Source of the DNA: Perna viridis
Lineage: Eukaryota
NCBI GenBank assembly: GCA_037379345.1
Contig: CM074515.1
Span: forward strand, 25,668,001-25,732,000
DNA: 64,000 bases
Direction: 5' to 3'
Shown one piece after another: positions 39,001 through 42,000 of this stretch. Made by a program: the position numbers. The first letter of the stretch is position 1. The number at the start of each line of letters is the position of its first letter.

Positions 39001-42000
39001 AGCTAATTCATACATCATACTAATTTATTAAGAGATGCCAGTGACCTGCATTGTATTAAAAGATTTAGAGTTGTCAATTTTGGAATTGATGATTGCAAAA
39101 TGAGTTTGCTGTTGACACCTCAGTAACTACTTTTACAGGACCATCAGATCAGAATTGATGATGACAAATTATCAAATATGACACAACAATCTCCATACTT
39201 AAGTGGTACTTATGCAATTATCAAATAAATTAATTACAGTCACAATTAAAAATCTTAAAAACAATGTAAAAAAAGAATAAACTATGAAACTTGCATGAAA
39301 AATGTATCCTTATCTACATACCAGTATTTTTTAATGAAATTTGGTGCAGTGGTTTTCTGAGGAGTTACACTTACAAAAGTGTGACGGACATGGCAAAACA
39401 AAATGTCTCCCCACCAAAGTGGGAGAGACATCATTTATACCCTGAAATTCACATCTTGCATTGAGTTTAGATACAAACATCGGTCTACAACTGAAAAATA
39501 ATAAAATGGTATACTGGTCAGAGAGTAGATCTTTCCATTTTCAAGATCAAAGCAATTCTTGCCAATCTGCTCAACAAAATTTTATTCCTTGATGAAAATC
39601 GTTGTACCATACTCATTTTTGAGAGCAAAAATACCAGCAATCTGTTGGACATTTTTTCCTAATTTTTTTACATGAACTCATTTTTCACAGGAAAGAACGA
39701 AAAATTGGTTGGCGAGAATTACTTGCTACCAAGAACTACTCCTTAACCAGTAGAGTAGAATTTTTCTACTTACAATTGATAACACCACTAGCCAGTCCAG
39801 GTATCCCAGGTATAACTTTCGTTACTTGTTCATTAAAATAGTCAGTACACAAGGTTTCATTGACTCCAACTGTACAGTAATGAGCATATATACCGCTATC
39901 ATTGTTCTTACTACAGTACATAGATCCATTCACAAATGAAACTGCAGAGGTTAAAAGTCGTTCTCCAAGGTAACATATACTGAAATGAAGGTCAAATAGG
40001 ATACGGATAGTACAGAGGTTAAAAGTCAGTCTCCAACGTAACACATACTAAAATGAAGGTCAAATAGGATAAGGATAATTTAGAGGTTAAAAGTATGTCT
40101 CCAAGGTAACATATACTGAAAATGAAGGCCAAATAGGATGAGGATAGTTTAGAGGTTAAAATTTGGTCTCCCTGGTAACATTTACTAAAATAAAGGTCAA
40201 ACAGGATAAGGATAGTGCAAAGGTTAAAAGTCAGTCTCCAAGGTCACATATGCTGGAATGACGGCCAAAAAGGCTAAAGATACTGCAGAGGTTAAAAGTT
40301 GGTCTCCAATGAATATACCAGTACTAAAACAAAGTTCAAATAGGGTAAAAGACCAAATTCTGTATTAATAAATACTGTAAAATTATGATTTTTTTTCTGT
40401 CTCCTAACTTTTTTTTATGTTAGGTAAATAGTGAATAGTGAGTCTCAGTAGACACATATACTGAAAAAAAAGATCAAATAAGGTAAAATATCTAATACCT
40501 CATAAACAATGTTAAGTAAGGTTTTCTTTTTATCATAAGTGCTTAATCACATTTATCATGTTTATAACTTCAAGAACTGTTAAAGTAGTATTTAGATTTG
40601 GCATATAAGACTTAGGTATATCAGCCCAAGTAGAAGCAGATTGGCCTTGACTATCTAAATTTTTAAATTTTCTTGTTCTGAAATTATTAATATACTGTAC
40701 AGTCAACAACAAAAAATTCTACATTTCATTATCTTAGGCCTGAGAAAAATTTATGTTTTTTTTTTCAGCTGAAAGGAAGTACACACCTAGAAAACCCTCT
40801 TGAGAATAACAGTGATAAGTTTAAGTTTACAAAAATATATCCCCACTACACTTGGACTTCAAGAATGAAACATCTTTATATTGGAATATTTTCCCTTGCA
40901 GGTGTCTCATAATAACTTTTTATCCATATTTACACAGAACAGCAAAATGTCTGATGAAGTTTAATCCAAATCCATCAAATAATTTTGTAATGGTTACAAG
41001 CTTAGAACATGTAAAACCTTTAATTTGGATAATCTCCTCTAGCAAGGACCATGCAATAATTATGTTTGTATCTTCCATCATTCTATATATGATGCTTTAT
41101 CTTTTTATGAAGTTTAATTAAAATCTGTCCATCAGATTTGGAACAATTGAACAAATCCCCTCGCAGGAATACTTCAATAATTGTCTTCCTTTCTTAACGA
41201 GTGATTGTTTGATCCTAATTTTACATCTGAATCTATACTGTAAGGTGTAAGGGATTTTTTTCTATGGAAACTGAATGTGTATATCAAGTAGCACAATAAT
41301 GGTATATATCTTATCTGCCTGATCCTTACATGAATCTATAAATAACTTACCTTACACTGTTGTCTGAATTTGACACAAAAAATCCAATATATATACAGAA
41401 TATAGACAATATCACACAAGCTAATGATAGTGCTGCAAATTTACTGACGAATCGTACACCTATAAATACTATCACTCCCAACAGTAGTAATATCAATGTC
41501 CCATACACACGATAATTGTTCAAAGCATTGGCTTCTATTGTCACATCACCAAACAATGAAATCTGTGGAGCCATAAATTTCTACAAAAAAAATATAAAAA
41601 ATATCTATATCATATTAACCTTATTTATTGATTGATTATGGTTTAAAATTCTATGGCAGACATTTCTTGCATTTCAGGACAAATATGAATCACCAATAGA
41701 ACAGACTCTGCTTTGTACTAGTCCAACATGCTGAGCCAGATGTTTATTGTTTGAGCTCACAAAAACGACAGCCCAAAGGTAGTATGCCATCCAAGTCAGA
41801 CACATTAATCTGACTCCAAGCCAACCAGTGGTCACTCTTATCCCCTGAAATACTGTGTGCTTGGCTTTGAGTATTTGGTGTAACTTGGCCAGGGATATAA
41901 CCCTTGATCTCCCACACTCAAGCCAAGCATGCTACCAAGAGACAACCGAGGTGGTATATTAAACTTATTATCTATCTAACTATCAGTTCAGTAAATTCCG

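What the first reader, a model, noticed from the sequence alone, without database searches (positions are those of the whole stretch)
39943..40490. Second, unrelated acceptor-spanning array at another exon of the same gene
Seen: a 68-bp unit holding the whole polypyrimidine tract, the AG and ~36 nt of exon (S|ICYLGERLLTSA) is repeated about 6 times. Every copy keeps an AG (offsets 68, 136, 205, 273, 344 and a decayed one at 481). Only offset 273 is in frame, and it meets TAG at 40050-40048, so all decoys are non-productive. Divergence rises with distance from the exon. Retention of YAG in all copies while neighbouring bases decay is notable, although the sample is small.
Basis: partly seen in the sequence, partly recalled or inferred. 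Interest (0 to 1): 0.66.

Follow-up and report, generated by a model that had tools for sequence, protein, structure and literature searches.

The report
Repeated splice-acceptor copies in mussel gene
A 68-base piece holding the end of an intron and the start of the next exon of a mussel-like potassium-chloride transporter gene has been copied head to tail six to seven times, most likely as a tolerated accident of DNA copying and not as a selected device.

Summary
On the minus strand, a 68-bp unit (31 nt of intron ending in YAG, plus the first 37 nt of the exon) stands in six contiguous copies at 39943-40354, with one decayed copy at 40434-40486. The host is a K-Cl cotransporter (SLC12A4-7 type) gene of a mytilid-like bivalve. 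Only the exon-proximal AG (39981-39980) gives the conserved ICYLGERLL reading. Every upstream AG would lead to an early stop. 20 of 67 adjacent column pairs are invariant in six copies, and 11 of 67 in seven. By a rough PWM the decoys look as strong as the true site. The unit occurs nowhere else in the window and has no RNA structure signal. The closest precedent is human CBS 844ins68, a 68-bp intron-exon junction duplication in which the distal acceptor is used. A second, unrelated 55-bp acceptor-spanning array lies in the same gene at 32945-33307. The coincidence is mildly unusual (P about 0.01-0.04, post hoc). RNA use and cross-species conservation could not be tested.

The parts
41351..41580 (-). 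Upstream coding exon of the K-Cl cotransporter gene (…KFMAPQISLFGDVTIEANALNNYRVYG…FFVSNSDNSV). It ends in phase 2.
   Evidence: tblastn HSPs 41577-41353 (76% to P0001, 66% to P0002). 91% identical to a Mytilus californianus SLC12A4-like protein. Boundaries.
41349..41350 (-). Donor GT of the intron (tgtaag|GTAAGTTA).
   Evidence: junction with indel 0. Sequence.
39980..41350 (-). Intron of 1371 nt. Its last roughly 510 nt are occupied by the array.
40434..40486 (-). c7, a decayed outlying copy. CAG with G at 40461. 61% identical to c0.
   Evidence: Found by a profile built without it, E 1.1e-4. Identity.
40350..40433 (-). A-rich stretch between c5 and c7. It is not detectably a copy and holds a CAG with G at 40375.
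   Evidence: No profile hit at E up to 10. 42-60% identity in a forced alignment.
40284..40354 (-). c5, decoy acceptor TAG with G at 40324 (offset 344, out of frame).
40216..40283 (-). c4, decoy acceptor CAG with G at 40253 (offset 273, in frame). It stops at TGA 40233-40231.
40147..40215 (-). c3, decoy acceptor TAG with G at 40185 (offset 205).
40079..40146 (-). c2, decoy acceptor CAG with G at 40116 (offset 136).
40011..40078 (-). c1, decoy acceptor TAG with G at 40048 (offset 68). Its exon-derived half (CTGAC, TTTTAAC at 40024-40018) lies inside the 51-nt AG-free zone upstream of the true acceptor, so it is the likely seat of that acceptor's branch point (inferred).
39943..40010 (-). c0, the functional unit: 31 nt of intron with the true acceptor and the first 37 nt of the exon.
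39980..39981 (-). True acceptor AG.
   Evidence: It is the only AG that restores the ICYLGERLL reading shared with bivalve orthologues, with indel 0.
39774..39979 (-). Coding exon of 206 nt. It encodes the extracellular-loop segment ICYLGERLLTSAVSFVNGSMYC…GIPGLASGVIN.
   Evidence: tblastn 39978-39775. Homologues at 52-53% identity. Donor tcaatt|GTAAGTAG.
32945..33307 (-). Context: the other, unrelated acceptor-spanning array of the same gene. It has a 55-bp unit in 6.5 copies. Seven CAG|GA sites have their G at 32995 (true), 33050, 33105, 33165, 33218, 33273 and 33317.

Best explanation
This is an intronic minisatellite that began as a tandem duplication straddling an intron-exon junction of a K-Cl cotransporter gene. 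It then grew by further slippage or unequal exchange to six contiguous copies plus one old remnant.

The duplicated unit starts in the intron and ends 37 nt into the exon. The exon-proximal copy therefore stays joined to the rest of the exon and keeps the gene intact. Every other copy is pushed into the intron as a complete-looking 3' splice module: a branch-point-like TTTTAAC, a pyrimidine tract and YAG.

Productive mRNA needs the last (distal) AG, as in the human CBS 844ins68 junction duplication. Use of any upstream AG would add 68 to 481 nt and meet a stop within 7 to 163 nt, so such transcripts would be lost or harmless.

- Shown: the array, its register, the frame consequences, the exon-to-intron direction of copying, and the lack of extra conservation of AG.
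- Inferred: the mutational mechanism, the exclusive or dominant use of the distal AG, decay of mis-spliced RNA, and the absence of a selected function.
For: - The array is real and local. TRF gives period 68, 5.4 copies and 82% matches. The profile finds copies only at 39943-40486 in the whole window. 0 of the other 18 mapped acceptors and 0 of 18 mapped donors of the gene match this unit.
- Copying ran from exon to intron. The 37 exon-derived bases encode ICYLGERLLTSA, and this motif is shared by distant bivalve orthologues: Mercenaria KICYLGERLLT, P0001 VICYLGERLLT, Mytilus californianus SICFLGDRLLT. The coding sequence therefore predates the array.
- The decoy copies evolve like non-coding DNA. 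The Arg codon CGA of c0 reads TGA in c1 and c4 (a CpG-type change that makes a stop), ATA in c2 and CAA in c3 and c5. The exon-derived half is no better kept than the intron-derived half: 21 of 37 against 14 of 31 invariant columns.
- AG is not specially kept: 20 of 67 adjacent column pairs are invariant in six copies and 11 of 67 in seven.
- All decoys are non-productive.
- There is no RNA structure signal: z = +0.73, and 78 of 100 shuffles fold at least as well. Rfam gives 0 matches and ARAGORN 0 tRNAs.
- There is a precedent. CBS 844ins68 is an exact 68-bp duplication of the intron 7/exon 8 boundary with two identical 3' splice sites. The distal one is chosen and normal mRNA results (passages in PMC7277093, PMC1802585 and PMC2630376).
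Against: - The decoys are not visibly disabled. A PWM trained on 18 other acceptors of this gene gives the true site 1.3 bits. The decoys score -0.2, 5.1, 0.8, -1.3, -0.4 and 7.5 bits, so two of them beat the true site. Pyrimidine content is 17-19 of 23 in all seven sites. Seven equal competitors transcribed before the true site would be expected to cost the gene much productive mRNA, which sits uneasily with pure neutrality. The PWM is crude: leave-one-out scores of true sites range from -2.3 to 12.5.
- A second junction-spanning array in the same gene is unlikely under random founding. P(at least 2 of 5 arrays founded across an acceptor) is 0.0105, and 0.038 for any junction. This is post hoc, and a whole-array overlap null gives 0.36.
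- The G runs that favour the distal site in CBS are absent here. There is one GGG in the whole array.
- No RNA data and no orthologous introns could be examined.
Confidence: 0.68

Rival explanations
1. The decoy acceptors are a selected dosage device. A regulated share of transcripts is spliced to an upstream AG, acquires a premature stop and is degraded (unproductive splicing coupled to nonsense-mediated decay). This would tune the level of a cell-volume transporter.
For: - All seven upstream AGs give early stops.
- The decoys score as well as the true site.
- Each of c0-c5 keeps one TTTTAAC, and c0-c3 have a 51-52-nt AG-free zone.
- Two such arrays lie in one gene.
Against: - AG, and the splice signals in general, are not kept beyond background.
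- The copies decay with distance like neutral DNA.
- The early stops follow automatically from a 68-nt period and from CpG decay, so they need no selection.
- There are no RNA data.
Confidence: 0.1
2. The array helps the true acceptor. The repeated branch-point-like and pyrimidine-rich modules load U2AF/U2 near a weak 3' splice site, and the exon-derived half of c1 now supplies its branch point.
For: - The true acceptor is weak by the gene's own standard: leave-one-out score 3.5 against a mean of 6.1 (sd 3.7).
- The AG-free zone upstream of it (51 nt) ends in c1's exon-derived half, which holds CTGAC and TTTTAAC 39-46 nt from the AG.
- TTTTAACCT is invariant in six copies.
Against: - A run of nine invariant columns is only marginally unusual when 35 of 68 columns are invariant. 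My estimate is about 0.08; it was not simulated.
- The intron-derived half holds its own TTGAC.
- Extra complete modules should compete with the true site and not help it.
- No experiment was possible.
Confidence: 0.1
3. The exon start was recruited from a pre-existing intronic or transposon-borne repeat (exonisation), and not copied out of the exon.
For: The window is rich in tandem arrays: 91 TRF rows, including a dispersed 33-bp satellite.
Against: - The encoded ICYLGERLLT is conserved in distant bivalves.
- The unit occurs nowhere else in the window on either strand.
Confidence: 0.03
4. Assembly artefact: collapsed or duplicated haplotypes.
For: None was found. Mussel genomes are heterozygous (my own knowledge).
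Against: - The copies differ by 12-39% and in length (68-71 nt). Artefactual duplications are near-identical and much longer.
- There is no N in the window.
Confidence: 0.02

Closest known systems
Human CBS c.844_845ins68 (844ins68) junction duplication
   Same: A 68-bp tandem duplication of the 3' end of an intron plus the start of the next exon gives identical 3' splice sites in tandem. The distal, exon-proximal site yields the normal mRNA (passages read in PMC7277093, PMC1802585 and PMC2630376). The equal unit length is a coincidence.
   Different: - Here there are six to seven copies and not two.
- The copies are old (12-39% diverged), not an exact, polymorphic duplicate.
- There are no G runs between the sites (one GGG).
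- The host is a bivalve SLC12 gene.
- Use of the distal site is inferred from the reading frame only.
[quoted passage not shown] 2010, PMC2891723, passages read; potato RdRp case PMC4974935, abstract in the search listing only)
   Same: A tandem duplication in a gene creates duplicate splice signals, and the material between them becomes intron.
   Different: Those cases duplicate exonic AG|GY, so that a new donor-acceptor pair arises. Here the unit carries only acceptors (AG|TA). The donor lies 1.37 kb upstream and the intron already existed. The duplication lengthens an intron and does not create or move one.
Intronic minisatellites (VNTR)
   Same: Head-to-tail units of tens of bases, with decay at the array edge and purely local copies.
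   Different: One end of the array is anchored inside a coding exon, so each unit carries a full acceptor module.
Alternative or tandem 3' splice sites and unproductive splicing (NAGNAG acceptors and poison splice sites are recalled, not read; Akerman and Mandel-Gutfreund 2007, PMC2018619, abstract read)
   Same: Several candidate AGs compete upstream of one exon, and the upstream choices introduce stops.
   Different: Known functional cases are conserved between species and are often frame-preserving. Here no conservation beyond background was found, and the only in-frame site meets a stop.

Membership tests
Tandem repeat (minisatellite) | Head-to-tail copies with a constant period of tens of bases, three or more copies | tested here: met
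   Period 68, 5.4 copies, 82% matches, 0% indels. Six contiguous copies in register.
Tandem repeat (minisatellite) | Copies local and not dispersed like a transposable element | tested here: met
   Profile hits lie only at 39943-40486, and the next best hit in 64 kb has E 0.3. Junction blastn finds copies only beside the junction. The rest of the genome was not searchable.
Intron-exon junction duplication (CBS 844ins68 type) | The unit contains the 3' end of the intron with its AG and the 5' part of the following exon | tested here: met
   31 nt of intron plus 37 nt of exon, with the exon start fixed by orthologue alignment at indel 0.
Intron-exon junction duplication (CBS 844ins68 type) | The distal (exon-proximal) 3' splice site is the one used in mRNA | not testable with these tools
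   There is only indirect support. It is the sole AG that gives the conserved reading. No transcript data could be reached.
Intron-exon junction duplication (CBS 844ins68 type) | G runs between the duplicated sites promote the distal site (a mechanism shown for CBS, not a defining trait of the class) | tested here: not met
   One GGG (40172-40170) in the whole array.
Functional alternative 3' splice sites / unproductive-splicing switch | Upstream AGs are used in RNA | not testable with these tools
   No RNA data. The protein searches found no product of the window's species other than the window's own ORF.
Functional alternative 3' splice sites / unproductive-splicing switch | Splice signals conserved beyond the neutral background | tested here: not met
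   AG is invariant, but so are 20 of 67 adjacent column pairs in six copies and 11 of 67 in seven. The test has low power with so few copies.
Functional alternative 3' splice sites / unproductive-splicing switch | Upstream choices introduce premature stops | tested here: met
   Stops lie 7-163 nt after each upstream AG. This is expected by chance for a 68-nt period.
Functional alternative 3' splice sites / unproductive-splicing switch | The array is conserved in related species | not testable with these tools
   No eukaryotic genome collection was open. The short ORF hits from relatives start inside the exon or carry only about 10 intronic codons.
Intron gain or sliding by proto-splice-site duplication | The duplicated unit carries AG|GY, so that a new donor-acceptor pair arises | tested here: not met
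   The junction in all copies reads YAG followed by TA or CA. The donor lies outside the array at 41350-41349.
SLC12 cation-chloride cotransporter, K-Cl branch (host gene) | AA_permease core and SLC12 C-terminal domain; close orthologues named SLC12A4/6 | tested here: met
   Single exons give PF00324 (30.9 and 29.3 bits) and PF03522 (57.9 bits). 19-20 collinear tblastn HSPs. 91% identity to a Mytilus californianus SLC12A4-like protein on one exon. The K-Cl assignment rests on the names of the hits.

The most novel reading that the evidence does not exclude
The two unrelated acceptor-spanning arrays in one K-Cl cotransporter gene are not accidents. They would be selected banks of decoy 3' splice sites that divert an adjustable share of transcripts into nonsense-mediated decay. 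An osmoconforming mussel would thereby have a splicing-level rheostat for a cell-volume transporter. More generally, acceptor regions in these genomes would be hotspots where such banks arise and persist.
Probability: 0.07. Interest if true: 0.75.

Novelty: new member of a known kind. Interest (0 to 1): 0.3.

Why it matters
If the array is what it seems, it is a natural multi-copy version of the classic duplicated-3'-splice-site experiment. Seven near-equal acceptor modules lie in series ahead of one exon, in a gene that must still make a conserved protein. That makes it a handy test case for how a spliceosome picks the last of several equivalent sites without the G runs used in human CBS. It is also a warning for gene prediction in repeat-rich mollusc genomes. 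It would matter more only if RNA data showed regulated use of the decoys, or if a genome-wide count showed that such arrays gather at acceptors.

Tried and rejected
- **Higher-order (dimer) repeat.** The -3 base alternates C/T along c0-c5. However, the 137-bp period matches no better than 68 bp (80% against 82%), and the pairwise matrix and tree give no dimer pattern. Rejected.
- **Order of duplication from a tree.** The tree is an unresolved star: 0 of 4 inner branches are supported. Terminal branches grow with distance from the exon (0.036, 0.027, 0.073, 0.14, 0.20, 0.37; c7 at least 0.63). This fits either budding next to the exon or edge decay, and it cannot tell them apart.
- **RNA structure that hides the decoys.** z = +0.73. 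Six weak inverted repeats were found, none pairing array units. Rejected.
- **Known RNA genes.** Rfam 0, tRNA 0.
- **Cross-species evidence through predicted proteins.**
  - The decoy ORF 40022-40243 searched against 1.84 billion representatives gave 1 hit, the window's own ORF.
  - The ORF 39769-40047 at near lengths gave 4 hits. One is the window's own. Two begin inside the exon. One (53% identity) carries about 10 unrelated upstream codons. This was uninformative.
- **PWM row at 40391.** I gave a coordinate that is not an AG (score -20.96). I dropped that row. The CAG at 40375 appears in the intron list of the same call at 4.1 bits.
- **Recursive splicing.** No copy regenerates a GT after its AG (YAG followed by TA or CA). 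Rejected by inspection.
- **Literature.** Searches found junction duplications (CBS) and duplication-born introns. They found no description of a multi-copy acceptor-spanning array. That is five full-text searches, not proof of absence. Searches failed on term syntax and were re-sent.
- **Collections not used.** The genome collection on hand holds only bacteria and archaea, so it was not used.
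Full report
**What the window is.** The window is AT-rich (GC 0.28-0.36 in 2-kb steps) and holds no N. It carries a multi-exon gene on the minus strand from about 53100 to 26136. Two bivalve SLC12 proteins align to it in 19 and 20 collinear tblastn pieces. Single exons match Pfam AA_permease (30.9 and 29.3 bits) and SLC12 (57.9 bits). The best named relative of the exon 41577-41353 is a Mytilus californianus 'solute carrier family 12 member 4-like' protein at 91% identity. An unnamed protein follows at 88%. In all, 40 proteins had E up to 1e-8 among 355 candidates. 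I therefore read the window as DNA of a mytilid-like mussel. I do not take it for human. Exons were searched one at a time.

**The observation.**
- Read on the minus strand, the exon 41580-41351 ends …AACAGTGTAAG|GTAAGT.
- The next exon starts after …CCTTCATTTCAG at 39979 and runs to 39774 (206 nt).
- With the two carried bases, its first codons read S, I C Y L G E R L L T S A. This matches VICYLGERLLT, KICYLGERLLT and SICFLGDRLLT in three bivalve proteins with no indel.
- Tandem Repeats Finder gives a 68-bp period, 5.4 copies and 82% matches at 39943-40309.
- In register, the six contiguous units are 39943-40010, 40011-40078, 40079-40146, 40147-40215, 40216-40283 and 40284-40354. Each is 31 nt of intron ending in YAG plus 37 nt of exon sequence.
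- A profile built from these six finds one more decayed copy at 40486-40434 (E 1.1e-4) and nothing else in 64 kb on either strand; the next best hit has E 0.3.

**Consequences of using a decoy.**
- The upstream exon ends in phase 2, so each decoy would first be read in the native frame of its own unit.
- The first stops fall 19, 94, 163, 19, 97, 7 and 13 nt after the AGs at 40048, 40116, 40185, 40253, 40324, 40375 and 40461.
- Only offset 273 is in frame with the exon. It stops at TGA 40233-40231, where the Arg codon CGA of the exon has become TGA. That TAG is a real in-frame stop (ORF bound).
- No copy has GT after its AG, so recursive splicing and cassette 'poison exons' are not on offer.

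**Is AG kept more than expected? No.**
- Among the six contiguous copies, 35 of 68 columns are invariant and 20 of 67 adjacent column pairs are invariant.
- With c7 added the counts are 28 of 68 and 11 of 67.
- With the non-matching spacer row forced in, they are 13 of 68 and 4 of 67. That row was positioned by the aligner, partly on the AG itself.
- Treating the copies as independent, the chance of keeping both bases is about 0.14 for c1-c5 and 0.05 with c7 (my arithmetic from the identities). Shared ancestry raises these figures.
- TTTG, GGAGA and TTTTAACCT are kept as well or better.
- The sample is small, so weak selection cannot be excluded. There is no positive signal.

**How the array evolved.**
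- Copying ran from exon to intron, because the encoded motif is shared by distant bivalves.
- All decoys read GAGAC where the exon reads GAGAA. They therefore keep an Asp-type codon, as in the closest relatives (LGDRLL in P0003 and P0004), while the exon now encodes Glu. Either the exon changed after the copies were made, or the intronic copies multiplied among themselves after one founding event.
- Identity to c0 is 88, 88, 82, 81 and 72%, then 61% for c7.
- The tree is an unresolved star whose tip branches lengthen with distance from the exon. This fits growth next to the exon or decay at the array's free edge.
- The 137-bp period is no better than the 68-bp one, so there is no higher-order repeat.

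**Are the decoys disabled? Not visibly.**
- A PWM from 18 other mapped acceptors of this gene gives the true site 1.3 bits. Its leave-one-out score is 3.5, against a mean of 6.1 (sd 3.7) for 20 sites.
- The decoys score -0.2, 5.1, 0.8, -1.3, -0.4 and 7.5 bits.
- Pyrimidines are 17-19 of 23 in all seven sites.
- Each of c0-c3 has a 51-52-nt AG-free zone that reaches into the exon-derived half of the next unit. That half holds one TTTTAAC per unit (6 of 6 contiguous units), and in c1 and c4 a CTGAC, 39-46 nt from the AG.
- So each unit looks like a self-sufficient 3' module. The true acceptor's branch point probably now lies in duplicated exon sequence. This is inference; no branch point was mapped.
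- The PWM is crude, and a species-wide model is needed.

**The second array.**
- Of 20 mapped acceptors, 2 have local copies. Of 18 mapped donors, 0 do.
- The other case is a 55-bp unit in 6.5 copies at 32945-33307. It has seven CAG|GA sites at offsets 0, 55, 110, 170, 223, 278 and 322, and none of the six upstream ones is in frame (modulo by my arithmetic).
- It is unrelated in sequence to the 68-bp unit.
- I placed the founding unit of each of the gene's five arrays (period 20 or more, three or more copies) at random in the gene span. At least two straddled an acceptor with probability 0.0105, and any junction with probability 0.038. If whole arrays are dropped at random, the figure is 0.36.
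- The founding-unit null is the apt one, because an array can only contain what its first unit contained. But the window came to me because a reader found it odd, so the coincidence is suggestive and no more.

**Other checks.**
- The RNA fold of 39920-40500 is no more stable than shuffles (z = +0.73).
- Inverted repeats are few and weak.
- Rfam and tRNA scans are empty.
- Protein-level routes to other species failed. The decoy ORF hit only the window's own ORF. The four near-length hits carried no useful intron sequence.
- No eukaryotic genome or transcript collection was open, so RNA use and conservation stay unchecked.

**Comparison with what is known.**
- The nearest precedent is human CBS 844ins68. 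[quoted passage not shown]
- It has two identical 3' splice sites, of which the distal is selected with the help of intervening G runs (PMC1802585, passage citing Romano et al. 2002).
- It is common and harmless in human populations (PMC2630376, passages).
- The present array has the same architecture, iterated and aged, without G runs (one GGG).
- Duplication-born introns (PMC2891723, passages) differ, because they need AG|GY in the unit.
- Five full-text searches turned up no multi-copy acceptor-spanning array. This is weak evidence of absence from print.

**Verdict.** The feature is real and accurately described. It is best explained as a tolerated junction-spanning minisatellite (confidence about 0.68). 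The claim of special AG retention is not supported. What remains curious is that seven good-looking acceptors precede the true one, and that the gene carries two such arrays. Only RNA data and sister genomes can say whether that is more than accident.

Noticed in passing
window 32945-33307 (minus strand): An unrelated 55-bp array of 6.5 copies spans the acceptor of another exon of the same gene (exon start 32994). All seven units keep CAG|GA, and none of the six upstream sites is in frame. The unit reaches 55 nt into the exon, whose own sequence …TTTATATCTAG resembles the intronic …TTTATATTTCAG.
   Followed up: partly
window 46358-46948 and 15744-15922: A 33-bp satellite of 18.4 copies lies in an intron of the transporter gene. 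It is related, in reverse orientation, to a 5.5-copy array 30 kb away (local alignment score 17 over 43 columns). It looks like a dispersed satellite family, unlike the two junction arrays.
   Followed up: partly
window 8690-10024 (minus strand): An open 444-aa ORF matches the Mutator-family transposase (PF00872, E 7.6e-8). It carries a 336-bp tandem duplication at 99% identity (8710-9382) that keeps the frame open (112 codons).
   Followed up: partly
window 14240-14398 (plus strand): A short ORF has an AN1-type zinc-finger match just below the Pfam cut-off (26.0 against 27.9 bits). It may be an exon of a neighbouring gene on the other strand.
   Followed up: no
window 52324-52487 and 51760-51884: Two more young arrays (41 bp x 4.0 at 97% matches; 26 bp x 4.8 at 91%) lie in the long first intron of the transporter gene. 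Neither touches a mapped junction.
   Followed up: no
protein P0038 (Mytilus galloprovincialis, partial model): This database gene model jumps from …VIVFIGVKFV straight to NNLFSRYTMKD…. It therefore lacks the end of the upstream exon and the whole exon studied here. The same region may be hard to model in that species too.
   Followed up: no
window 39943-40310 (plus strand): Read on the plus strand, each unit contains CCAAG|GTAACA, a good donor-like motif. It is the reverse complement of the exon's TGTTACCTTGG. No plus-strand gene was seen here, so this is probably a coincidence.
   Followed up: no
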